Assembly (NCBI GenBank): GCA_003524085.1
Contig: DOEC01000006.1
Location: 1,146 to 65,145 of the forward strand
DNA from: Bacillota bacterium
Lineage (GTDB): Bacteria; Bacillota_I; Bacilli_A; RF39; UBA660
DNA: 64,000 nucleotides
Direction: 5' to 3'
Of the stretch, positions 7,617-64,000 are shown in pieces. The first letter of the stretch is position 1, and each line of letters starts with the position of its first letter. The notes under the pieces are model-generated. The model saw only the letters and a program-made list of their open reading frames with translations, was not told where the DNA came from and did no database searches. A program made the position numbers and the translations under genes.

Positions 7617-8156
7617 CTAGCATTTGCTAATTTGAACTAAATCTACTTCTACTGGTGTTTCTTGTCCAAATAAATCTATTAAAACATTTAACTTTTCGTT
7701 TTCTAAATCAATACTTTGAACTTTACCAAACATTCCATTAAATGGTCCATCAACAATTTTAACTGAATCGCCTTCTTGTAAGTCTGTTTCAATGTCAAGT
7801 CTACTAAGTCCTTCACTAGCTAGAATTTTATCTATTTCTTGTGGAGATAATGGAATTGGTTTAGCACCCTTACCACTACTACCGATAAATCCAGTAACTC
7901 CTGGAGTATTTCTAACTGCATACCAAGCTTCGTCACTCATAATCATTTCAACAAGTACATAACCTGGAAACATCTTCTTTGTTTTTTCTTTCTTAATGCC
8001 ATCTTTAATTTCAACTTCTTTAGTTTCTGGAACAATAACTCTAAAAATATTATTTCCCATACCCATTGAGTCTTTTCTCATAAGTAAGTTTTCTTTTACT
8101 TTACTTTCATGGCCTGAATAAGTATTAACAACATACCATAACTTTTGATTTTCCAT
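7617..8156 (-). CDS. nusG: Transcription termination/antitermination factor NusG
   Basis: 179 aa. It starts WYVVNTYSGHE, has the NGN domain, and a C-terminal KOW (GDSVKIVDGPFNGMFGKV). Confidence 0.95.
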   Translation of the reverse strand: MENQKLWYVVNTYSGHESKVKENLLMRKDSMGMGNNIFRVIVPETKEVEIKDGIKKEKTKKMFPGYVLVEMIMSDEAWYAVRNTPGVTGFIGSSGKGAKPIPLSPQEIDKILASEGLSRLDIETDLQEGDSVKIVDGPFNGMFGKVQSIDLENEKLNVLIDLFGQETPVEVDLVQISKC

Positions 8157-8159
8157 AAT

Positions 8160-8339
8160 TTATCCCACGATTCCTTTCAAGAAAGTAAATAATACATCTA
8201 GTAAGTAAAAATATCCACCAAAGAACACCATTAAAGTAAGAACCATTACTGAATACTTAAATAAATCTTTACCACTAGGCCACCTTACCATCTTTTTTTC
8301 TTTACTAACACCTTTAAAAAATGCCTTGATTTTTTTCAT
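8160..8339 (-). CDS. secE: Preprotein translocase subunit SecE
   Basis: This is the ORF track frame, with the likely start at MKKIKAFFKGVSKEKKMVRWPS... after a GGAGGG RBS. Single C-terminal TM, located immediately upstream of nusG. Confidence 0.8.
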   Translation of the reverse strand: MKKIKAFFKGVSKEKKMVRWPSGKDLFKYSVMVLTLMVFFGGYFYLLDVLFTFLKGIVG

Positions 8340-8349
8340 AAGTCCCTCC

Positions 8350-8373
8350 ATAAAAAAAACACTTACGTGTTTC
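8350..8373 (-). terminator. Weak hairpin plus T-run between sigE and secE
   Basis: On the minus strand: AAACAC-GTAA-GTGTTT followed by T8, ending just before the secE RBS. The stem is only 6 bp. Confidence 0.35.
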
Positions 8374-8418
8374 AGTAATTTAAATATACTACAAATTAAA
8401 GAAAAATACAAGTGTTTT

Positions 8419-9105
8419 TTAAACTTTCATTAAACTTTTTAGCCTTTTTATAGCTTTTTTTTCAATTCTTGAGATATAGCTTTGACTTATACCTAACATA
8501 TCAGCTACTTCTTTTTGAGTATATTCTTTTTGATTATATAAGCCATACCTAAGTGTTAGTATTTCTTTATCTCGTTTATTTAAGTTTTCTATTTCTTTAA
8601 TTAGAAGTTCTTTATCAACAATACTTTCATATTCCTTTTCTACTATATCATCAGGTGTTCCTAAAACATCTTCTAAATGTAGTTCGTTACCATCTTGATC
8701 TAAATTAATAGAGTCTTCAAATGAAATTTCAACTTTCCTTCTTTTATTCTTTCTTAAAAACATAAGTATTTCATTATCAATACATCTACTAGCGTATGTT
8801 GCTAGTTTTATGTTCTTGTCTAGTTTATATGTCTTAACTCCTTTGATAAGCCCGATTGTACCAATGCTAACTAAATCTTCTAAGTCATACATTGTATTAT
8901 CATACTTTTTAGCAAGAAAAACTACAAGTCTTAAGTTGTGCTCGATTAGTTTGTTTCTTGCATGCATATCTCCATTATTACTCTTAATGACTAGCTCTTC
9001 TTCCATGCTTTTTTCTAAAGGTGGTGGAAGTATATCGGTACTTCCTAAGTAAAAAACTTTTTCTTTATCCTTAAACAAACTACTTATAAAATCAAATATT
9101 TTCAT
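8419..9105 (-). CDS. sigE: Sporulation sigma factor SigE (pro-sigma-E)
   Basis: 228 aa. YLGSTDILPPPLEKSMEEEL, HARNKLIEHNLRLVVFLAKKY, SIGTIGLIKGV, KLATYASRCIDNEILMFLR and ISQSYISRIEKKA closely follow the B. subtilis SigE pattern. It lies directly after spoIIGA. Confidence 0.9.
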   Translation of the reverse strand: MKIFDFISSLFKDKEKVFYLGSTDILPPPLEKSMEEELVIKSNNGDMHARNKLIEHNLRLVVFLAKKYDNTMYDLEDLVSIGTIGLIKGVKTYKLDKNIKLATYASRCIDNEILMFLRKNKRRKVEISFEDSINLDQDGNELHLEDVLGTPDDIVEKEYESIVDKELLIKEIENLNKRDKEILTLRYGLYNQKEYTQKEVADMLGISQSYISRIEKKAIKRLKSLMKV

Positions 9106-9106
9106 G

Positions 9107-9895
9107 TTATCCCTCCATTAATAAATAATTTAATAAAACTTCTACTTTGTTAGACTTTAACTTATCTTTTACTACACCTACTACTATATTCTTTTTTACT
9201 CCAATACCTTCTATAAATATTTTCTTAACTTTGTAACACCTCAACAATCCACCCTCATTAATACTTTGGTATGGTATATAGAAAAATGGAGTGTTTTTAA
9301 TTATACTTTCAAACTTTTTAGAATTAGTTATGATAACTGGTCTATTTGTATATGGATCTATTAAAGTGTTTCCTGTGTCCATGTAGCCTATGAGTTCTAG
9401 TTTACTTTCATTAATATAGATATCCACTTTATAATATAAACTATTAATTTCACGAATAACTTTCATTTGTTTATAATAGATATACATTATAATTGGAGTA
9501 CATATTAATATAAAGATGTAATTAATACTTATGCCTTTATGAAAAAATACCATACCAATATTCTTATAACTAAAGCTTACGTTTAAATAATATATAAACC
9601 CTCCTAAGATTATGCTTATTAAATAAAAATATACCAAGTTAGTTATAAAATACTTAAAGTCAGAATAACCAAATGTTATGAGTATTATCAAAACTGATAA
9701 AAATACCTTAAGTAAAAAGAGTGTTAAAGTAGTTAAGGGCACGAATAAAACAATGATAGTTATACTTCCTAGTAAAGAACCCAATACTATTTTTTTAATA
9801 GAAGTTCTTCTTTTAAGGACAATACTTGTAGTAAGTAAAAGTATAAAATCAAAAAAGAAGTTTAAAAATATTATTAAGTCAACATACACTTTCAT
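9107..9895 (-). CDS. spoIIGA: Sigma-E processing peptidase SpoIIGA
   Basis: 262 aa with five N-terminal TM segments and the aspartic protease motif MDTGNTLIDPYTNRPVII. Confidence 0.9.
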   Translation of the reverse strand: MKVYVDLIIFLNFFFDFILLLTTSIVLKRRTSIKKIVLGSLLGSITIIVLFVPLTTLTLFLLKVFLSVLIILITFGYSDFKYFITNLVYFYLISIILGGFIYYLNVSFSYKNIGMVFFHKGISINYIFILICTPIIMYIYYKQMKVIREINSLYYKVDIYINESKLELIGYMDTGNTLIDPYTNRPVIITNSKKFESIIKNTPFFYIPYQSINEGGLLRCYKVKKIFIEGIGVKKNIVVGVVKDKLKSNKVEVLLNYLLMEG

Positions 9896-10943: not shown

Positions 10944-11852
10944 CTAACTAATTTGCACAGTTTTATTTATTTTAAATTCTACTATAGTTACTTGATTATC
11001 TTTTACGTAATGAGCTTCAAACTTATTTACTGACTTTGTTATAATTATTCCAATAGTACTATTTTGAGTTATATTTTTTAAGTGTTCGTCAATATAGTTC
11101 ATATACGTTTTTATTTGACCATAGTCACTTTTCTTATATTCTCTTGATTTTATCTCTACTACACAATATCTACTTTCAACCACATTATAAAATAGATAGT
11201 CTATATAATTCTTTTTGTCTCCAATGTTAAGTTTATATTCTCTTCCGACGTAAAAATATCCACCGCCTAATTGTTTCATAAAACTATCTAAGTTTTCATA
11301 AATAATTTCTTGTAATATTTTTTCAGTATAAACTTCATAACTTTTATTAGGTGTTAACACTATTGGACTGGGGACACTTTGAATTAAAGAAAGTTCTTCT
11401 TTATTTAAAAGACTTTCTTTTGCTTCAGTTGAGAGTCTACCATACTCATTACTCTTTATTCTTTCAGCTAATGCTCTTTTACTTAAATTATCTCGTTTAG
11501 TAATATGAATATAATACTTAATTTCTTTGATATCTCTTAGTGATAATAAAATCTTGTAATGACTCCACGTCAATTGTCGCTCCAGTGGAGCGACTTTTTG
11601 AATTAATAAATAAAATTGTTGTATCTTATATAAATCTTTTTCCTTATATCCACTTCCAAATTCCTTAGTTAAAATACTTGCATATTTTTTTACTATTCCT
11701 TCTCCATAGTGTTTACCTGCTTCTACTAGTTCCCTTCCTATATTATAATTCATTGTAAGTTTTACATTATTTATCTGATAATTCTTAGCTACTACTTTAG
11801 CATTTCCATTTATTATTTCAGTCTTTATATTACTTAAATATTCGTCTATCAT
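10944..11852 (-). CDS. DUF1016/YhcG-family PD-(D/E)XK nuclease-domain protein, array copy 1
   Basis: 302 aa. YhcG-N pattern (NYNIGRELVEAGKHYGEGI, EFGSGY, LTWSHYKILL). C-terminal IDYLFYN...VVEIK nuclease core and GQIKTYMNYID. Confidence 0.8.
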   Translation of the reverse strand: MIDEYLSNIKTEIINGNAKVVAKNYQINNVKLTMNYNIGRELVEAGKHYGEGIVKKYASILTKEFGSGYKEKDLYKIQQFYLLIQKVAPLERQLTWSHYKILLSLRDIKEIKYYIHITKRDNLSKRALAERIKSNEYGRLSTEAKESLLNKEELSLIQSVPSPIVLTPNKSYEVYTEKILQEIIYENLDSFMKQLGGGYFYVGREYKLNIGDKKNYIDYLFYNVVESRYCVVEIKSREYKKSDYGQIKTYMNYIDEHLKNITQNSTIGIIITKSVNKFEAHYVKDNQVTIVEFKINKTVQIS

Positions 11853-11864
11853 AAATTTTCCCTC

Positions 11865-12773
11865 CTAACTAATTTGCACAGTTTTGTTTATTTTAAATTC
11901 TACTATAGTTACTTGATTATCTTTTACATAATGTGCTTCAAACTTGTTTACTGATTTTGTTATAATTATTCCAATAGTATTATTTTGAGTTATATTTTTT
12001 AAGTGTTCGTCAATGTAGTTCATATACGTTTTTATTTGACCATAATCGCTTTTTCTATATTCTCTTGCTTTTATTTCAACTACACAATATCTACTGTCAA
12101 CTACATTATAAAATAGATAATCTATATAATTCTTTTTGTCTCCAATGTTAAGTTTATATTCCCTACCAATAAAAGCGTAGCCTCCACCAAGTTGATGCAT
12201 AAAATCTTCTATATTTTCAAAGATTATTTCTTGTAATATTTTTTCAGTATAAACTTTATAACTTTTATTAGATGTCAACACTATTGGACTTGGGACACTT
12301 TGAATTAAAGAAAGTTCTTCTTTATTTAAAAGACTTTCTTTTGTTCCATCTGAAAGTCTATCATACTCATCACTTCTTATTATTTCAGCTAATTTTCTAT
12401 AACTTAAATTATCTCTTATAGAAATATTAGTATAATAATTGATTTTATTGATATCTTTTAAAGGTAAAAGTAATCTTATGTGTTCCCAAGTCAATTGGTG
12501 CGGCAATGCCGCACCTTTTTCAAAAAGAACATAAAATTGACGCATTCTCTTTAAATTAGATACAGAATATCCACTTCCAAATTCCTTAGTTAAAATACTT
12601 GCATATTTTTTTACTATTCCTTCTCCATAGTGTTTACCTGCTTCTACTAGTTTCCTTCCTATATTATAATTCATTGTAAGTTTTACATTATTTATCTGAT
12701 AATTCTTAGCTGCTACTTTAGCATTTCCATTTATTATTTCAGTCTTTATATTACTTAAATATTCGTCTATCAT
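11865..12773 (-). CDS. DUF1016/YhcG-family PD-(D/E)XK nuclease-domain protein, array copy 2
   Basis: 302 aa paralog. A 12-nt gap with TAG-GAGGG stop/RBS overlap separates it from its neighbours. Confidence 0.8.
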   Translation of the reverse strand: MIDEYLSNIKTEIINGNAKVAAKNYQINNVKLTMNYNIGRKLVEAGKHYGEGIVKKYASILTKEFGSGYSVSNLKRMRQFYVLFEKGAALPHQLTWEHIRLLLPLKDINKINYYTNISIRDNLSYRKLAEIIRSDEYDRLSDGTKESLLNKEELSLIQSVPSPIVLTSNKSYKVYTEKILQEIIFENIEDFMHQLGGGYAFIGREYKLNIGDKKNYIDYLFYNVVDSRYCVVEIKAREYRKSDYGQIKTYMNYIDEHLKNITQNNTIGIIITKSVNKFEAHYVKDNQVTIVEFKINKTVQIS

Positions 12774-12785
12774 AAATTTTCCCTC

Positions 12786-13694
12786 CTAACTAATTTGCAC
12801 AGTTTTGTTTATTTTAAATCCTACTATAGTTACTTGATTATCTTTTACATAATGAGCTTCAAACTTATTTACTGATTTTGTTATAATTATTCCAATAGTA
12901 CTATTTTGAGTTATAGTTTTCAAGTGTTCGTCAATGTAGTTCATATACGTTTTTATTTGGCCATAATCGCTTTTCTTATACTCTCTTACTTTTATTTCAA
13001 CTACACAAAAACAGTTCATTTTGTAATTGTATAAAAGATAGTCTATATAATTCTTTTTATCTCCAATATTGAGTTTATATTCTCTACCAATAAAAGAGTA
13101 TTCTCCACCAAGTTGATGCATAAAATCTTCTATATTTTCAAATATTATTTCTTGTAATATCTTCTCATTATAAAATTCATAGCTTTTATTTGGTGTCAAT
13201 ACTATCGGACTGGGTATGCTTTGAATTATTGAAAGCTCTTCTTTGTTTAAAATACCCTCTTTCGTTTCAGTTGAAAGTCTGCCATACTCATTACTTCTTA
13301 TTCTTTCAGCCAATGCTCTTTTGCTTAAATTATCTCGTTTAGTAATACTAATATAATACTTGATTTCTTCTACATTTTTTAATGGTAAAAGTAATTTATA
13401 ATGAGACCAAGTCAAAAGTTGCCCCACTGGAGCAACTTTTTGACTTAAATCATAAAATTGCTTCATTCTTGTTAATTCTGTAAAAGTATATCCCTTACCA
13501 AATTCTACCGTTAATTCCTTTGCATATTTTTTTACTATTCCTTCTCCATAATGTTTACCAGCTTCTGCTAGTTCCTTACCAATATTATAGTTCATTGTAA
13601 GTTTTACATTGTTTATCTGATAATTTTTAGCTATTACTTTAGCATTACCATTTATTATTTCATTCTTTATATTTTCTAAATAATTGTCTATCAT
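12786..13694 (-). CDS. DUF1016/YhcG-family PD-(D/E)XK nuclease-domain protein, array copy 3 (first in the operon)
   Basis: 302 aa paralog. Same termini as the other copies, with divergent blocks at residues ~60-100 and around the nuclease core (IDYLLYNYKMNCFCVVEIK). Confidence 0.8.
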   Translation of the reverse strand: MIDNYLENIKNEIINGNAKVIAKNYQINNVKLTMNYNIGKELAEAGKHYGEGIVKKYAKELTVEFGKGYTFTELTRMKQFYDLSQKVAPVGQLLTWSHYKLLLPLKNVEEIKYYISITKRDNLSKRALAERIRSNEYGRLSTETKEGILNKEELSIIQSIPSPIVLTPNKSYEFYNEKILQEIIFENIEDFMHQLGGEYSFIGREYKLNIGDKKNYIDYLLYNYKMNCFCVVEIKVREYKKSDYGQIKTYMNYIDEHLKTITQNSTIGIIITKSVNKFEAHYVKDNQVTIVGFKINKTVQIS

Positions 13695-39310: not shown

Positions 39311-39387
39311 GGGGAATTAGCTCAGTTGGCTAGAGCACCTGCCTTGCACGCAGGGGGTCGCGGGTTCAAGTCCCACATTCTCCACCA
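39311..39387 (+). tRNA. tRNA-Ala (anticodon UGC)
   Basis: GGGGAATTAGCTCAGTTGG...CCTTGCACGCAGG...TTCAAGTCCCACATTCTCCACCA. The G3:U70 identity pair is present and CCA is encoded. Confidence 0.95.
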
Positions 39388-46130: not shown

Positions 46131-46207
46131 TGGTCGGGAAGACAGGATTTGAACCTGCAACCACTCGGTCCCAAACCGAGTGCTCTACCAAGTTGAGCCA
46201 CTTCCCG
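46131..46207 (-). tRNA. tRNA-Pro (UGG)
   Basis: The reverse complement gives CGGGAAGTGGCTCAACTTGG...CTCGGTTTGGGACCGAG...CCA. Confidence 0.95.
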
Positions 46208-46212
46208 ATAAA

Positions 46213-46289
46213 TGGCGTCCCCAAGAGGAGTCGAACCCCTAACCTTTTGATCCGTAGTCAAACGCTCTATCCAGTTGAGCTATGAGGAC
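46213..46289 (-). tRNA. tRNA-Arg (ACG)
   Basis: The anticodon loop on the minus strand is CTACGGA. Cloverleaf and CCA are present. Confidence 0.9.
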
Positions 46290-46332
46290 AGCCTGTCCAA
46301 AATATATATAAGCTCCGGCTGGCTTTTAAAAA

Positions 46333-46408
46333 TGGTGGCTTCAGTTGGAATCGAACCAACGACACCAAGATTTTCAGTCTTGTGCTCTGCCAACTGAGCT
46401 ATGAAGCC
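46333..46408 (-). tRNA. tRNA-Phe (GAA)
   Basis: GGCTTCATAGCTCAGTTGG...CAAGACTGAAAATCTTG...CCA. Confidence 0.95.
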
Positions 46409-46412
46409 ACAA

Positions 46413-46488
46413 TGGCGGTTCCGACGGGAATTGAACCCGCGATCCCTCGCGTGACAGGCGAGTGTGATAACCGCTACACCACGGAACC
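46413..46488 (-). tRNA. tRNA-Asp (GUC)
   Basis: GGTTCCGTGGTGTAGCGG...CTCGCCTGTCACGCGAG...CCA. Confidence 0.95.
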
Positions 46489-46495
46489 TTATTTT

Positions 46496-46572
<77 letters not shown>

Positions 46573-46590
46573 ATGTTAGTTTTTTAATTT

Positions 46591-46683
46591 TGGCGGAGGA
46601 AAAGGGATTTGAACCCCTGCGCCGCTTTCACGACCTCCTGGTTTTCAAGACCAGTCCCTTCAGCCAGACTTGGGTATTCCTCC
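46591..46683 (-). tRNA. tRNA-Ser (UGA), long variable arm
   Basis: GGAGGAATACCCAAGTCTGG...CTGGTCTTGAAAACCAG...CCA. 93 nt. Confidence 0.9.
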
Positions 46684-46690
46684 AACAAGA

Positions 46691-46779
46691 TGGTGCCTCG
46701 GGCCGGACTTGAACCGGCACGGTATTTAACTACCGAGGGATTTTAAGTCCCTTGCGTCTACCAATTTCGCCACCGAGGC
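46691..46779 (-). tRNA. tRNA-Leu (UAA), long variable arm
   Basis: GCCTCGGTGGCGAAATTGG...AGGGACTTAAAATCCCT...CCA. 89 nt. Confidence 0.9.
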
Positions 46780-46803
46780 GTGTCACAATTTTTTATTAAA
46801 AAA

Positions 46804-46879
46804 TGGTGACCCGCTGGAGATTCGAACTCCAGACCCCTTGATTAAAAGTCAAGTGCTCTACCGGCTGAGCTAGCGGGTC
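46804..46879 (-). tRNA. tRNA-Lys (UUU)
   Basis: GACCCGCTAGCTCAGCCGG...CTTGACTTTTAATCAAG...CCA. Confidence 0.95.
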
Positions 46880-46891
46880 AATATTATAAAT

Positions 46892-46967
46892 TGGTTGCCT
46901 CGGCGGGATTCGAACCAGCGAAATGCACGAGTCAAAGTCGTGTGCCTTACCACTTGGCTACGAGGCA
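46892..46967 (-). tRNA. tRNA-Gln (UUG)
   Basis: TGCCTCGTAGCCAAGTGG...CACGACTTTGACTCGTG...CCA. Confidence 0.9.
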
Positions 46968-46974
46968 ATCTAAG

Positions 46975-47058
46975 TGGTGGAGAGACATGGATTCGAACCA
47001 TGGAACCCGAAGGAACAGATTTACAGTCTGCCGCGTTTAGCCTCTTCGCTATCTCTCC
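46975..47058 (-). tRNA. tRNA-Tyr (GUA), long variable arm
   Basis: GGAGAGATAGCGAAGAGG...CAGACTGTAAATCTG...CCA. 84 nt. Confidence 0.9.
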
Positions 47059-47065
47059 AAAAAAA

Positions 47066-47141
<76 letters not shown>

Positions 47142-47147
47142 AAATTA

Positions 47148-47224
47148 TGGTGGGCGACGAGAGACTCGAACTCCCGACCTCCTGCTTGTAAGGCAGATGC
47201 TCTAACCAACTGAGCTAGTCGCCC
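47148..47224 (-). tRNA. tRNA-Val (UAC)
   Basis: GGGCGACTAGCTCAGTTGG...CTGCCTTACAAGCAG...CCA. It is the first gene of the array. Confidence 0.95.
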
Positions 47225-59178: not shown

Positions 59179-60177
59179 CTATAATGTTTTCGTTTCATTA
59201 TTAAGTTCAGTTTTGTATGAAGTGATAGCTTCTTTTAAATCACTTTCTATTTTATATATTCCTAATGCTTTAGAAAAACTTTGTAAGTCAGTCCTGTAAG
59301 GTATGGAGAATGCTTGGTAAATGTTGTTTATATATGCTTTATCACTCTTTAATTTATCATACATATAATAACCATACACACATCCGAAAATATAATATAA
59401 ACTTCTTTGTGGGTGTAAGTCTTCTATTTCACTAGCAAAATAATCTTTTATTTTTGATAACTCTCTGTTATAGCTTTCTTCAGTCATTTTCCCGTATAGT
59501 TTTTTATAACTATCATACTCGAAGTCTCCAAAAGTAAAGTAAACATTAATGAATGCCATAATACGTATTAAATAACTTTTATTTAAAGTGTTCTTAAACC
59601 TTAGTTTTCTAACATACTTCATTTCTTCATTGTATCCCATACTGGATAACTCGTCTTCCATCAAGAATTCAGTAAATATTGCTAGGCTTTCACTCACCAT
59701 ATGGTCAGTTGTATTTTCAGGTATTCCAACAGTGTAATGAGCTAGTTCATGGGCAAATATTACTGCGTCAGTTATGTATCCTGAGTTTGGTATAGAGATA
59801 AATCTAAAATCGTCTTTTATTCCTGCACATCCAGCAACTATACCTTCATGTATACTTGGTAAATAGTCTTTATCATACTCATATTCTCTAAAATCAATTG
59901 TACCATCAGATAATATTTTATCAATTGTTTCATTACTTATTGGATAGTTATACTTTTTAAAAATTTTTTTAACTAAATCTATTTTTGTAAGTAAATCAAG
60001 TCTTTTATAATTTTCTAAGTCAACTTTGCTAAACTTTACATCAGCTAATTCTTCTTTTAGGTCTAAATATAATTCACTTATTTTAATAATTAAATTCAAG
60101 TTAGCTAATGTAATACCACTTAGTTTATTTTTAGATAAAAATTCATCTAACTTTATCTTTAATTCTTCGTTAGTCAT
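59179..60177 (-). CDS. Small HExxH (gluzincin/M3-like) metallopeptidase-like protein, paralog 2
   Basis: 332 aa. ITDAVIFAHELAHYTVGIPE...SESLAIFTEFLME. It overlaps the SPFH gene stop by 8 nt. Confidence 0.55.
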   Translation of the reverse strand: MTNEELKIKLDEFLSKNKLSGITLANLNLIIKISELYLDLKEELADVKFSKVDLENYKRLDLLTKIDLVKKIFKKYNYPISNETIDKILSDGTIDFREYEYDKDYLPSIHEGIVAGCAGIKDDFRFISIPNSGYITDAVIFAHELAHYTVGIPENTTDHMVSESLAIFTEFLMEDELSSMGYNEEMKYVRKLRFKNTLNKSYLIRIMAFINVYFTFGDFEYDSYKKLYGKMTEESYNRELSKIKDYFASEIEDLHPQRSLYYIFGCVYGYYMYDKLKSDKAYINNIYQAFSIPYRTDLQSFSKALGIYKIESDLKEAITSYKTELNNETKTL

Positions 60178-60957: not shown

Positions 60958-61959
60958 TTACCTTATTTTTTCATGTCTATTTAATTCATCTATTGTGTCA
61001 GCAACCTCTTTTTTTAAATCAAACAACGTTACTTCTATTGCTTTTAAAAACTCAATTAGATCGTATTCACTATACTTATAAGACTTTTTAATTACATTAA
61101 TATACGACTTATCACTTATAAATCTTTTTGCAATATTTCTACCTACTAGACATCCAATTAAGTATCTCATTTTAATTGTAATGTTAGTTCTTCTATCATA
61201 TGCATCTTCTGTTTCATTTTCTCTCTTTTCTAGAAAATACTTTACATCATTTATTATATAATCATATTCTTCAAAAGATAACCCAGGAAACAATCTAGAC
61301 ATTCTTTCTTTTGAAATATCTTTAAAAGCCATATATGTTTCTAAAACGTATAATGTGTTATAGATTTCTTTAGTGCAGCTATATGCATTAGCAACTCTTA
61401 TTTTTGTAAATAAACGTGTATCTTTTTGATAGCCCATTTTATCAAGATTTTCAAGCATTAAACTTTCTACAAAAATTGCATATATTTCTGACTTAAATGT
61501 GTCGTTATAAGATTCTGGACAACCATAAATGTAATGTGCTAGCTCATGTGAAAGCATTACTGCATCTGTAACTTTGCCATTGTTTGTTATAGTTACTTTG
61601 GGAGTTTCATTCCAAACCACACTAGTAGAACCAATAATTTTATCATAGTCACTTCTACTATTTGATGGGTCATTAAATACAATTACACCATTATTAATTA
61701 GCTTATCTATATCAATATTTTCAAGCTGCACACAATATTTAGAAAACAATTCTTTAGTTAACTTAATTGAACTACTAATATCCATGTCACTTATTTGTCT
61801 CATATTAATATCTTTATATTTAAAATCTATTAAATATGGTCCTAATTTAATATACTTTTTGGCTATTTGTATAAATGCGCCTAAATCATTTAATAATTCT
61901 TCGTCGTCTATTTTATCAACTAGTTCTTTTACTTTTTCTTTTAGCTCATCATCACTCAT
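60958..61959 (-). CDS. Small HExxH (gluzincin/M3-like) metallopeptidase-like protein, paralog 1
   Basis: 333 aa. VTDAVMLSHELAHYIYGCPE...SEIYAIFVESLML. It is collinear with 59179..60177. Confidence 0.55.
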   Translation of the reverse strand: MSDDELKEKVKELVDKIDDEELLNDLGAFIQIAKKYIKLGPYLIDFKYKDINMRQISDMDISSSIKLTKELFSKYCVQLENIDIDKLINNGVIVFNDPSNSRSDYDKIIGSTSVVWNETPKVTITNNGKVTDAVMLSHELAHYIYGCPESYNDTFKSEIYAIFVESLMLENLDKMGYQKDTRLFTKIRVANAYSCTKEIYNTLYVLETYMAFKDISKERMSRLFPGLSFEEYDYIINDVKYFLEKRENETEDAYDRRTNITIKMRYLIGCLVGRNIAKRFISDKSYINVIKKSYKYSEYDLIEFLKAIEVTLFDLKKEVADTIDELNRHEKIR

Positions 61960-63084: not shown

Positions 63085-63155
63085 CCTTTTGTTCGCTAAT
63101 TTTGTAATAAAAAAATTCTACTACAAACATCTTTCACTTCTCATATTTAAATAAC

Positions 63156-63188
63156 AAATATAAAACAGTAGAGTTTTAGTTCTACTGC
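63156..63188 (-). terminator. Rho-independent terminator downstream of the DGR template repeat
   Basis: On the minus strand: CAGTAGA, 8-nt loop, TCTACTG, then TTTTATATTT. Confidence 0.65.
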
Positions 63189-63413
63189 TTTATATTGGTA
63201 AATACCTAGATCCGTTATTTACTCTGTTTCGGGTTTCCTACTAAAGAGTAAGGACTGACATTTACTGTATTCAAGTTATTTCTAACTTAGGAAATAAACT
63301 TGTTTCTCTACATCTTAGTCTACTATAACATTTGTTATGACTTTTCTTTTAAATTTAAACTCATTAACGAAATAATTTTTACAATATATTTCAAGCTTAA
63401 CTCTAGAGAAGTT

Positions 63414-63531
63414 GGCGGGACGCACGGCGTTAGTGTTGTCCACGTTGTTGTTGTTCAAATTCGCATTGTCGGAATTCCAGTTCCACACGTTCGCGTTCCC
63501 ATTGTTCCAATTGTTAGGAGACAAGGACCAC
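63414..63531 (-). repeat. DGR-like template repeat (TR), adenine-rich
   Basis: 118 nt. The minus strand reads TGG TCC TTG TCT CCT AAC AAT TGG AAC AAT GGG AAC ... AAC GCC GTG CGT CCC GCC and aligns ungapped to 63831-63948. It lies in no long ORF, and the 72-aa N-rich track ORF here is spurious. Confidence 0.75.
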
Positions 63532-63740
63532 ACGAGTAAGGCAAGCTGAAGCCACGCGTACTTTATAGCTTATTCCTATATCAAAAGTGTTTTCACACTT
63601 GATACCAAAATTAAATTTTCACAACTGGCACTCACGCGCCAGAAAGTATTAGTCTTTCTAGCACAGGTTAGTCAGTATTCATTTTTTTGCTTACCACCAA
63701 CTTACGTCGGTGGAGCCGTCCGGATTACAAGAGTCTCAGT

Positions 63741-64000
63741 TTAGCATCCACTTGAAGTTTCCACTATTTCATATGGTGTCTCATATGTCCCATCTCCTGT
63801 ACTATATTTGATACAAGATTTGAGAGAAATGGCGGGACGCACGGCGCTTGCGGGGCGGACGCGGCGGTAGTCCAAGTACACATTGCCGGAAGCCCAGTAC
63901 CACACGTACGCGCTAGACCCATACCATTGAATAGGCGACAAGGACCACCAATATGTTGATACTTGAGAACCAGTACTATTACTAATAAACCATGCATATG
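63741..64000 (-). CDS. C-terminal part of a DGR target (variable) protein, open to the window edge
   Basis: The frame of track ORF 63741..63941 has no stop up to position 64000. It reads ...YAWFISNSTGSQVSTYWWSLSPIQWYGSSAYVWYWASGNVYLDYRRVRPASAVRPAISLKSCIKYSTGDGTYETPYEIVETSSGC*. Confidence 0.7.
   Translation of the reverse strand, partial: YAWFISNSTGSQVSTYWWSLSPIQWYGSSAYVWYWASGNVYLDYRRVRPASAVRPAISLKSCIKYSTGDGTYETPYEIVETSSGC
63831..63948 (-). repeat. DGR-like variable repeat (VR) at the 3' end of the target gene
   Basis: It has the same length as the TR. Most differences sit where the TR has A. The two repeats share the 3' GC-rich 16-mer CGCCGTGCGTCCCGCC (IMH-like). Confidence 0.75.

What the first reader, a model, noticed from the sequence alone, without database searches (positions are those of the whole stretch)
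63414..64000. Diversity-generating retroelement signature (TR/VR pair) at the window edge, with no reverse transcriptase nearby and unusually many non-adenine differences
Two 118-nt segments lie 417 nt apart and align without gaps on the minus strand.

- The proximal copy (63414-63531) is full of AAC/AAT codons. It reads WSLSPNNWNNGNANVWNWNSDNANLNNNNVDNTNAVRPA and lies outside any real gene.
- The distal copy (63831-63948) is the C-terminal part of an ORF that stays open to position 64000. It reads WSLSPIQWYGSSAYVWYWASGNVYLDYRRVRPASAVRPA.

By my hand count 23 of 36 mismatches are at TR adenines, whereas VR adenines opposite a non-A TR base are rare. This is the asymmetric A-mutagenesis hallmark of DGRs. 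Both copies end in the identical GC-rich CGCCGTGCGTCCCGCC (IMH-like), and the local GC content is far above the surrounding genome.

Two things are unusual. About 13 differences are not at adenines, including one stretch that aligns better with codon-sized indels. And the ~1.3 kb downstream of the TR holds a terminator and rmuC, not an RT or avd gene. So this is either a DGR with an atypical layout (RT upstream of the target gene or in trans), a VR serviced by another TR, or a decaying element.
Basis: partly seen in the sequence, partly recalled or inferred. Interest (0 to 1): 0.7.

Follow-up and report, generated by a model that had tools for sequence, protein, structure and literature searches.

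The report
RT-less satellite cassette of a DGR
The window edge holds a genuine template/variable repeat pair of a diversity-generating retroelement. It is one of several satellite copies (target gene plus its own template RNA) scattered in the chromosomes of an uncultured gut Bacilli clade, and in a related genome the reverse transcriptase lies hundreds of kilobases away; in this particular lineage the variable repeat appears frozen.

Summary

It is a real DGR component. In 111 homologues of the 509-aa target, variability sits only on TR codons with A at position 1 or 2 (2.5 versus 0.1-0.2 bits). Proteins identical outside the VR differ at 8-17 VR residues.

No RT, Avd or MSL gene lies in the 64-kb window or the 14 kb beyond it. 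In relatives the target is multi-copy, in at least six chromosomal contexts. Some copies have only a VR. Some (rmuC, IleRS) carry their own TR with conserved flanking RNA. One sits in a canonical core: target-TR-MSL-Avd-RT, with an IGNYSSQ/YMDD RT. On one 702-kb contig the core lies about 190 and 340 kb from two other copies.

Most non-adenine mismatches arise because the window's VR derives from another TR allele ("type 2", W-N-G-S-N-A) than its neighbouring TR ("type 1", W-N-N-G-N-A). The count falls from 13 to 6-7.

The window's VR is static. It is identical in eight contigs that differ by 0.4-2.7%, whereas core VRs differ at 16-24 nt between contigs with identical flanks.

The RT of the window's own genome was not found. 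Verdict: a new variant of a known kind.

The parts
63741..64000 (-). 3' end (last 85 codons plus the stop at 63741-63743) of the DGR target gene. The full gene encodes 509 aa, with an N-terminal signal anchor and a DUF6273-like C-terminal domain. It continues beyond the window.
   Evidence: tblastn of the L001 509-aa protein matches residues 425-509 at 100% identity to 63998-63744. The gene was called on L001 at 7765-9294. DUF6273 match: E = 0.3 for this protein; 24.5 bits (cut-off 23.5) for the 824-aa paralogue.
63831..63948 (-). Variable repeat (VR), 'type 2' (WSLSP IQ W Y GS S A Y ...). It is static in this lineage.
   Evidence: It is identical in L001-L005 and L011, with one non-A SNP in L007. 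Its best match is to TR allele 2 (20-21 A-site and 6-7 non-A mismatches) rather than the adjacent TR (23 and 13).
63830..63846 (-). IMH-like GC-rich 3' end of the VR (CGCCGTGCGTCCCGCCA), identical to the 3' end of the TR. Partial similarity continues for about 35 nt into the diverged flanks (ATTTCTCTCAAATC... against AACTTCTCTAGAGT...).
63532..63740 (-). Non-coding spacer between the target stop codon and the TR, with conserved local hairpins (for example 63713-63694 CCACCGAC-GTAA-GTTGGTGG). The window and L011 lack the 5' arm (16 nt) of a 9-10 bp GC-rich hairpin that is present in the seven other TR loci; its 3' arm remains at 63716-63724.
   Evidence: Alignment A2 and RNAalifold. One stem shows a G-C to A-U compensatory change in the RT-core loci (pair of columns 132/143).
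63414..63531 (-). Template repeat (TR), allele 1, with 35 adenines. Its 19 Asn/Asp/Thr codons with A at position 1 or 2 are in frame with the VR. It is not part of a conserved ORF.
   Evidence: The VR of L015 (same rmuC context, 95.5% identical locus) differs from exactly this TR at 18 adenines and at 0 other bases.
63197..63413 (-). Conserved non-coding segment 3' of the TR, analogous in position to the BPP-1 'Sp' region. It is the most conserved part of the cassette.
   Evidence: It is 94.6% identical to the segment next to the RT core of L022 and 89.4% to that of L023. The TR itself is only 85% and 73% identical. The fold z-score is -2.2. There is no Rfam match.
63157..63196 (-). Terminator-like hairpin ending the cassette. 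Homology to cassettes in other chromosomal contexts stops at about 63148.

Best explanation
**What the region is.** 63148-64000 is the downstream part of an RT-less 'satellite' cassette of a multi-locus diversity-generating retroelement in an uncultured, low-GC gut Bacilli clade. The rest of the target gene lies beyond the window edge. A cassette consists of:
- a conserved promoter region;
- a 509-aa secreted or surface protein whose DUF6273-like C-terminal domain carries the VR;
- about 210 nt of structured spacer;
- a TR;
- about 220 nt of highly conserved 3' RNA;
- a terminator.

**Inferred mechanism.**
1. The cassette's TR unit is transcribed.
2. A DGR reverse transcriptase with Avd and a MutS-like accessory protein, encoded at a distant core locus, recognises the conserved flanks.
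3. It copies the TR into adenine-mutagenised cDNA.
4. The cDNA replaces any VR in the genome that carries the shared 5' homology (TGGTCCTTGTC) and the IMH (GCCGTGCGTCCCGCC).

**Why neighbours need not match.** Several TR alleles share these ends, so the TR that wrote a VR need not be its neighbour. The window's VR was last written from a type-2 TR, while a type-1 TR lies beside it.

**State in this lineage.** This VR has not been rewritten for a long time.

**Shown:**
- the anatomy of the cassette;
- adenine-directed hypervariation across the population;
- the core locus and its distance in a relative;
- the allele mismatch;
- the stasis of the window's VR.

**Inferred:**
- use of satellite TRs in trans;
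- RNA recognition through the conserved flanks;
- presence of an RT in the window's own genome.
For: **The pair carries the adenine signature.** 23 of 36 mismatches are at TR adenines (p = 3e-7).

**The VR family is hypervariable only where the TR has adenines.**
- In 111 homologues, entropy is 2.5-2.6 bits at TR codons with A at position 1 or 2 and 0.05-0.22 bits elsewhere. The residue sets are as predicted: ATT gives I/V/L/F, GAC gives D/G/V/A.
- 35 protein pairs identical outside the VR differ at 8-17 VR residues, apart from one pair that differs at a single residue.

**A canonical core exists in the clade.**
- L022 has target-VR-TR-MSL-bAvd-RVT_1, and its TR/VR pair shows 18 A-site and 0 non-A differences.
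- The RT has the IGNYSSQ and YMDD motifs.
- Eight core VRs from contigs with an identical RT show 15-20 A-site and 0-1 non-A differences from an invariant TR (seen in nine contigs); six of the eight VRs are distinct. Pairs with 100.000% identical 5.8-kb flanks still differ at 16-24 VR bases.

**One contig carries the core and remote copies.** The 701,950-nt contig holds the RT core at about 495 kb, a TR-bearing RT-less cassette at about 154 kb and a VR-only paralogue at about 303 kb.

**The window cassette is a copy of the core's module.** It is 83% identical over 826 nt to the VR-to-Sp module of the L022 core, and the 3' flank is 94.6% identical.

**Satellite TRs appear to be working templates.**
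- TR allele 1 was found only in RT-less cassettes. The 17 core loci fetched carry TR2b or TR3 wherever a TR was recovered (14 of them).
- Type-1 VRs nevertheless diversify between near-identical proteins.
- The VR of L015 fits the window's TR with 18 A-site and 0 non-A differences.

**No core genes near the window cassette.** RT, Avd and MSL are absent from the window, L001 and L015.
Against: - The RT was not located in the window's own genome. The link between satellites and core rests on a related genome and on sequence homology.
- The window's VR still has 6-7 non-A differences from the best TR allele sampled. About 4 remain after allowing for TR polymorphism.
- The VR is invariant across the lineage, so this copy may no longer be serviced at all.
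- No transcript or cDNA data are available.
- Covariation support for the flanking RNA structure is thin: 7 of 152 pairs among nine closely related sequences.
- VR types could also be shuffled between paralogues by gene conversion rather than by retrohoming.
- Some contigs (L015, L016) collapse the VR and TR into one copy, a reminder that metagenome assemblies of this repeat family can be chimeric.
Confidence: 0.8

Rival explanations
1. Fossil: the window's lineage has lost the DGR core. The TR and VR here are relics drifting by ordinary mutation, and the adenine bias is a footprint of past activity.
For: - The VR is identical in the window, L001-L005 and L011, and has one non-A SNP in L007, despite 45-116 SNPs per 12 kb and 2.7% divergence.
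- About 4 non-A differences from any sampled TR remain unexplained, and two of them are synonymous, as expected for an old VR.
- The window and L011 share a 16-nt deletion in a conserved hairpin.
- No RT lies within about 78 kb.
Against: - The TR, the IMH and the 217-nt 3' flank are intact. The flank is 94.6% identical to the one beside an active core.
- The target ORF is intact in L001.
- RT-less cassettes are the normal state in this clade, so absence of a nearby RT says nothing.
- The RT family is very common in the clade: clusters of 384 and 302 members, and one exact RT sequence listed in 144 blocks of the contig index.
Confidence: 0.3
2. The TR/VR mismatch arose by homologous recombination or gene conversion between paralogous cassettes, or between strains, rather than by retrohoming from a remote type-2 TR.
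For: - Paralogues share 82-93% identity and a conserved upstream region.
- All four TR-type and VR-type combinations occur in both the rmuC and IleRS contexts.
- The context upstream of the core target differs between contigs that have an identical RT.
Against: - This does not conflict with the DGR reading; it changes only how the mismatch arose.
- TR alleles share both homology ends, so cross-writing is mechanistically expected.
- Partial rewriting of the VR is seen in the core: L026 and L032 share the 3' half.
Confidence: 0.25
3. An ordinary partial gene duplication that diverged by chance, with no retroelement involved.
For: The adjacent pair has 13 non-adenine differences, more than DGR callers usually allow (criteria quoted from PMC6642488).
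Against: - The adenine bias has p = 3e-7.
- The TR is built from in-frame AAY codons.
- Hypervariation across the population is confined to those codons.
- Relatives carry a canonical RT/Avd core with the same TR flanks.
Confidence: 0.01

Closest known systems
MSL-containing DGRs ('Architecture D' of Wu et al. 2018, PMC5758913; examples include the Legionella DGR and the Bacteroides DGRs with Msl, bioRxiv 10.1101/2024.11.15.621889)
   Same: - The core in relatives is target-TR-MSL-Avd-RT.
- The RT has the [I/L]GxxxSQ motif.
- The TR is rich in AAY codons.
- The VR lies in the C-terminal domain of a secreted protein.
- The TR/VR pair ends in a GC-rich IMH.
   Different: - The window locus has none of the protein components.
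- Extra TR units, complete with flanking RNA, are duplicated to distant chromosomal sites.
- One core (L023) has an additional 118-aa gene between MSL and Avd.
DGRs with remote targets (Treponema denticola, PMC4891356; the remote targets more than 100 kb away in Wu et al. 2018; Thiohalocapsa PB-PSB1, PMC10907252)
   Same: - One RT serves several paralogous target genes scattered in the chromosome, here at least six contexts.
- VR-only paralogues lie next to housekeeping genes.
- Some copies look static or left over.
- Doré et al. explicitly consider an RT and/or a TR acting in trans.
   Different: In those systems, as described, the TR stays with the RT. Here some remote targets bring their own TR and flanking RNA, with TR alleles that differ from the one beside the RT, and neighbouring TR and VR often do not match.
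Bordetella phage BPP-1 DGR (mechanistic prototype; target requirements in PMC3240598)
   Same: - Adenine-specific TR-to-VR information flow.
- A GC-rich IMH followed by a flank that differs between TR and VR.
- A conserved non-coding segment 3' of the TR, where BPP-1 has its spacer RNA.
- avd-TR-brt is known to work in trans from a plasmid.
   Different: - This system is chromosomal and not phage-linked: 0 hits in viral and phage collections.
- No GC-rich 4-nt-loop hairpin lies within 4-34 bp of the VR; the only such hairpin is about 100 nt away and is half deleted in the window.
- The VR is followed by 27 more codons.

Membership tests
Diversity-generating retroelement (DGR) | A TR/VR pair whose differences fall at TR adenines | tested here: met
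   In the window, 23 of 36 differences are at A (p = 3e-7), with 13 non-A differences. Against TR allele 2 the counts are 20-21 A-site and 6-7 non-A. In related loci they are 15-20 A-site and 0-1 non-A.
Diversity-generating retroelement (DGR) | A DGR-clade reverse transcriptase ([I/L]GxxxSQ motif) in the same locus | tested here: not met
   There is no RT, Avd or MSL in the 64-kb window, in L001 or in L015 (14.4 kb beyond the VR): motif scans and tblastn with all E > 1. Relatives do have it: the L022 RT carries IGNYSSQ and YMDD, and the L023 RT lies on the same 702-kb contig as two further target copies.
Diversity-generating retroelement (DGR) | The VR is hypervariable in populations at TR-adenine positions, while the TR is invariant | tested here: met
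   Met for the gene family and the core. Not met for the window's own VR in its lineage: it is identical in eight contigs, with one non-A SNP in a ninth (L007).
Diversity-generating retroelement (DGR) | An IMH: a GC-rich stretch identical in TR and VR, followed by flanks that differ | tested here: met
   A 17-nt identical run (CGCCGTGCGTCCCGCCA) is followed by related but distinct flanks.
Diversity-generating retroelement (DGR) | A GC-rich hairpin or cruciform with a 4-nt GRNA loop 4-34 bp downstream of the VR (PMC3240598) | tested here: inconclusive
   None lies at that distance. A 9-10 bp GC-rich hairpin with a 4-nt ACCC loop sits about 100 nt downstream in seven other TR loci, but its 5' arm is deleted in the window and L011. 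VR-only paralogues have different hairpins.
Diversity-generating retroelement (DGR) | The VR lies in a C-type-lectin-like or other known variable-protein fold | tested here: inconclusive
   The VR region aligns to the C-terminal end of Pfam DUF6273, a reported DGR target domain (papers). E = 0.3 for the window protein and 3.7e-4 for P0042; the 824-aa paralogue scores 24.5 bits, above the cut-off. The AlphaFold model has pLDDT 43.8 and is unusable. A PDB profile search found nothing.
Architecture D (MSL-containing) DGRs, Wu et al. 2018 | A small MutS-domain-I-like accessory gene together with avd next to the RT | tested here: met
   Met in relatives only: MutS_I E = 2.3e-6, bAvd E = 1.6e-6, DivGenRetAVD E = 5e-8. 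These genes are absent from the window.
DGR with remote targets | VR-bearing paralogues far from the RT on the same replicon | tested here: met
   On the 701,950-nt contig, the RT lies within the fetched stretch 485,302-506,417, P0009 within 292,837-314,375 and P0093 within 143,919-165,448. This was not shown for the window's own genome.

The most novel reading that the evidence does not exclude
A single chromosomal RT/Avd/MSL core drives a network of dispersed, self-contained 'DGR RNA' genes (satellite TRs with conserved 5' and 3' RNA flanks). Their different TR alleles cross-write a family of at least six paralogous surface-protein genes wherever the shared IMH occurs. Each paralogue also sits behind its own poly-G tract, a possible on/off switch. 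That would be a two-layer antigenic or adhesive variation system with templates supplied in trans, an arrangement that RT-anchored DGR surveys cannot see.
Probability: 0.45. Interest if true: 0.7.

Novelty: new variant of a known kind. Interest (0 to 1): 0.55.

Why it matters
**Blind spot in DGR surveys.** Surveys start from the RT and look for repeats nearby. By their authors' own statement they miss remote components (PMC8144416). This clade shows that whole target+TR modules can live without an RT, next to housekeeping genes, and that their TR alleles are never seen beside an RT. This implies three things:
- a DGR RNA can be supplied from a separate locus in nature;
- one RT can use several templates;
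- a TR and the VR next to it need not be partners, which explains 'too many non-adenine mismatches' calls such as this one.

**Natural material for engineering.** The very conserved 217-nt segment 3' of the TR is a candidate for the RNA element that the RT/Avd complex recognises. It would be useful for engineering trans-acting DGR templates.

**Relevance to gut biology.** The system marks a hypervariable, probably phase-variable, surface-protein family in a common but uncultured human-gut Bacilli lineage.

Tried and rejected
- **First rmuC look-up.** The look-up with the longest rmuC ORF failed; the second ATG gave 21 contigs.
- **Phage origin.** TR patterns, the target protein profile and its C-terminal domain found nothing in viral contigs or phage genomes. 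A phage origin is rejected for lack of any hit.
- **Known RNA family.** Rfam has no family on the TR flanks.
- **RT right behind the TR.** The 375-aa ORF just downstream of the TR in L013 and L014 looked like an RT candidate, but it is an HTH protein followed by an SDR and IleRS.
- **Second TR copy elsewhere.** The genome-contig scan gave one hit only (L009, a Hadza MAG titled 'uncultured Bacilli bacterium') and the metagenome scan gave seven. Neither revealed a second context for this TR with an RT.
- **Structure of the target.** Prediction from 25 close homologues gave pLDDT 43.8, so no fold search was run. A PDB sequence profile search was empty.
- **Tying the RT to the window's lineage.** Shared samples did not help: none of the ten RT contigs shown came from a sample carrying the window's rmuC lineage. 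Synteny did not help either: no overlap exists between the window and any RT-context locus.
- **Hairpin deletion as the cause of VR stasis.** Considered, but VR-only paralogues lack that hairpin and still diversify, so it remains only a note.

Full report
**1. The observation**

On the minus strand, 63414-63531 and 63831-63948 align without gaps, 417 nt apart. A script count gives 36 mismatches over 118 nt. 23 fall at the 35 adenines of the proximal copy and 13 at its 83 other bases. Fisher's exact test gives p = 3.4e-7.

The proximal copy reads WSLSPNNWNNGNANVWNWNSDNANLNNNNVDNTNAVRPA and the distal one WSLSPIQWYGSSAYVWYWASGNVYLDYRRVRPASAVRPA. Both end in the same 17 nt, CGCCGTGCGTCCCGCCA. The region has 47-61% GC in a window of 28.3%.

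Downstream of the proximal copy lie a terminator-like hairpin (63196-63157) and rmuC (PF02646).

**2. What lies beyond the window edge**

The RmuC protein, read from its second ATG, is on 21 metagenome contigs from human gut samples. L001 extends 10 kb further.

- The VR-bearing ORF is a 509-aa protein with an N-terminal signal anchor.
- It has no significant Pfam match. Its VR region aligns weakly to the C-terminal end of DUF6273, and the match is significant in paralogues. DUF6273 is a reported DGR target domain (papers listed).
- Upstream are a VTT-domain gene, a rhodanese gene, a TraG/VirD4-like gene, a two-component system, a class-I tRNA-synthetase gene (PF00579) and a Mur ligase gene, but no RT.
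- L015 reaches 14.4 kb upstream of the VR.
- A YxDD scan and tblastn with the RT, Avd and MSL proteins found later give nothing in the window, L001 or L015.

About 78 kb around the pair is therefore free of DGR protein genes.

**3. Is the system alive?**

The target protein has more than 7,400 homologues. The best 120 are 81-100% identical.

- In their alignment, variability is concentrated in the VR.
- The VRs split into two types: 50 of type 1 (W-x-x-G-x-A) and 61 of type 2 (W-x-G-S-x-A).
- Mean column entropy is 2.57 and 2.52 bits at TR codons with A at position 1 or 2. At all other codons it is 0.22 and 0.05 bits.
- The residue sets are those adenine mutagenesis predicts: ATT gives I/V/L/F, GAC gives D/G/V/A, ACT gives T/A/S/P.
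- 35 protein pairs with no difference in about 465 non-VR residues differ at 8-17 VR residues, except one pair that differs at a single residue.
- Type-1 VRs behave the same way: for example 1 non-VR difference against 14 VR differences.

This is targeted hypermutation on a very short time scale.

**4. Where the reverse transcriptase is**

Gene neighbourhoods of seven homologues and the pattern-scan loci show that the target gene is multi-copy and dispersed among housekeeping genes.

| Context | Loci | Content |
|---|---|---|
| rmuC | window, L001 | VR and own TR |
| IleRS/SDR | L013, L014, L019, L021 | VR and own TR |
| HisRS | L018 | VR only |
| EF-Tu | L017 | VR only |
| RNase Y | L020 | VR only |
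| WhiA | L022 | canonical core |

In L022 the target is followed by a TR, a 133-aa MutS-domain-I-like gene (MSL), bAvd and a 371-aa RVT_1 protein. That protein carries IGNYSSQ, the DGR-type [I/L]GxxxSQ motif, and YMDD. This is Architecture D of Wu et al. 2018 (PMC5758913).

A sister RT (P0262) lies on the 701,950-nt Hadza contig that also carries two other copies:

| Element on the contig | Position |
|---|---|
| P0093, IleRS context, with its own TR | about 154 kb |
| P0009, HisRS context, VR only | about 303 kb |
| RT core | about 495 kb |

In that core the RT follows an 824-aa target of the same family and a different TR ('TR3'). MSL, a 118-aa ORF and Avd lie between the TR and the RT.

Ten loci from different samples carry an identical RT protein. 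An invariant TR was recovered in nine of them and a VR in eight, of which six are distinct. These VRs differ from the TR at 15-20 adenines and 0-1 other bases. Contigs whose 5.8-kb flanks are 100.000% identical still differ at 16-24 VR bases.

**5. What the window cassette is**

From the VR to the terminator, the window is 83% identical over 826 nt to the corresponding module of the L022 core, and 76% identical to that of L023. Homology with cassettes in other chromosomal contexts ends at window position about 63148, just after the terminator.

In a nine-locus alignment, conservation is uneven:

| Segment | Identity to L022 core | Identity to L023 core |
|---|---|---|
| 217 nt 3' of the TR | 94.6% | 89.4% |
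| TR itself | 85% | 73% |
| 5' spacer | 69% | 58% |

Local hairpins are kept, with a few compensatory changes. Covariation is weak because the sequences are close. The segment has no Rfam match and a modest fold z-score of -2.2.

I read the cassette as a duplicated target-VR-TR-flank module that kept everything needed in cis and none of the proteins.

**6. Why there are 13 non-adenine mismatches**

TR alleles differ between loci:

- Allele 1 (window, L011, L013, L014, L016) encodes SP-N-N-W-N-N-G-N-A.
- Allele 2 (L009, L019, L021, L022) encodes SP-[T/I]-N-W-N-G-S-N-A.
- The two share both ends.

The window's VR (SP-I-Q-W-Y-G-S-S-A) is of type 2. Against allele-2 TRs it shows 20-21 A-site and 6-7 non-A differences, instead of 23 and 13. 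After discounting positions that are polymorphic among TRs, about four remain, two of them synonymous.

The reverse case also exists: L019 has a type-2 TR beside a type-1 VR. Other matches across loci are clean:

- The VR of L015 (rmuC context) fits the window's TR exactly, with 18 A-site and 0 non-A differences.
- The VR of L012 and L014 fits the TR of L011 with 18 and 0, better than the TR next to it in L014 (17 and 2).

All four TR/VR type combinations occur in both TR-bearing contexts. Allele 1 was never seen next to an RT in the 17 core loci fetched, of which 14 yielded a TR. Since type-1 VRs diversify, an RT-less satellite TR must be a working template, unless unsampled cores carry it.

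**7. State of the window's own VR**

The VR is identical in the window, L001-L005 and L011, and has one non-A SNP in L007. Yet these contigs differ from the window by up to 116 SNPs per 12 kb (L002 by none, the others by 45 or more), and L011 differs from L001 by 2.7%. Compared with the core, which changes at zero flank divergence, this copy is effectively frozen. Its residual non-A differences fit an old VR.

Possible causes:
- loss of the RT in this lineage (untested);
- selection for this VR sequence;
- a local defect.

On the last point, the window and L011 share a 16-nt deletion. It removes one arm of a GC-rich hairpin that all seven other TR loci have just after the stop codon. However, VR-only paralogues lack that hairpin and still diversify, so I do not lean on it.

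**8. Comparison with what is known**

- Remote VRs are known in Treponema denticola (PMC4891356), in the survey of Wu et al. (PMC5758913) and in Thiohalocapsa. For Thiohalocapsa, 'RT and/or TR encoded elsewhere' was considered (PMC10907252).
- Multi-TR loci are known (PMC6642488).
- avd-TR-brt works in trans experimentally (quoted).
- RT-anchored surveys state that they miss remote components (PMC8144416).

In the library I searched I did not find dispersed RT-less TR-bearing cassettes with their own TR alleles and a conserved flanking RNA. I therefore rate this a new variant of a known kind, not a new kind.

**9. Limits**

- The RT of the window's own genome was not found. The genome and metagenome scans were exhausted, and no locus overlaps both the window and an RT context.
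- Metagenome contigs of a multi-copy family can be chimeric: L015 and L016 collapse the VR and TR into one copy.
- The fold of the target is not established.
- Transcription and cDNA synthesis are inferred, not observed.

Noticed in passing
L001:7651-7660 (about 105 nt upstream of the target ATG, outside the window); also L010:538, L014(-), L016(-), L017:9888, L018:9884, L019:9891, L021:9888, L023:5433: Every paralogue of the target gene, including the RT-core operon, has a conserved upstream region of about 190 nt containing a poly-G tract of 8, 9, 10 or 13 G, in a 28% GC genome. This looks like a slipped-strand phase-variation switch on each copy. Illumina poly-G error could contribute to the length differences.
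   Followed up: partly
window 63716-63730 (minus strand; alignment A2 columns 30-45): The window and L011, the lineage with the frozen VR, share a 16-nt deletion that removes the 5' arm of a 9-10 bp GC-rich hairpin (CCGTCCGAAA-ACCC-TTTCGGACGG). In the seven other TR-bearing loci this hairpin follows the target stop codon.
   Followed up: partly
L015:14444-14805 and L016:3024-3150: Two metagenome contigs have a single repeat copy joining the target gene directly to the TR's downstream flank. In L016 that copy is the unmutated TR sequence. This is either assembly collapse across the repeat or a real VR-TR deletion.
   Followed up: no
L026-L032, 1-1100: Contigs with an identical RT protein have different genes upstream of the core target: WhiA, a DHH/DHHA1 protein, or another gene. 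This suggests rearrangements or chimeric assemblies at the repeated target genes.
   Followed up: no
L023:9324-9680, L024:2414-2770: An extra 118-aa ORF sits between MSL and Avd in the TR3-type core and has no family match. By eye its sequence resembles the MSL protein (for example 'VSVYVDD' and 'VSLYVNN'), so it may be a second MSL-like gene.
   Followed up: no
L036:515-1710: An IS element (HTH_Tnp_1 plus rve transposase genes) is inserted between WhiA and the core target gene in one 655,724-nt contig.
   Followed up: no
window 46131-47224 and 39311-39387: The other GC-rich islands of the window are a cluster of 12 tRNA genes and a single tRNA-Ala, not further TR or VR copies.
   Followed up: yes
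window 10944-13694 (minus strand): Three tandem ORFs of exactly 302 aa each lie at 10944-11852, 11865-12773 and 12786-13694. They look like a tandem triplication and were not examined.
   Followed up: no
window 59179-60177 and 60958-61959 (minus strand): Two paralogous ORFs of 332 and 333 aa with no Pfam match both contain an 'HELAHY' motif. They flank a Band_7 gene just downstream of rmuC.
   Followed up: no
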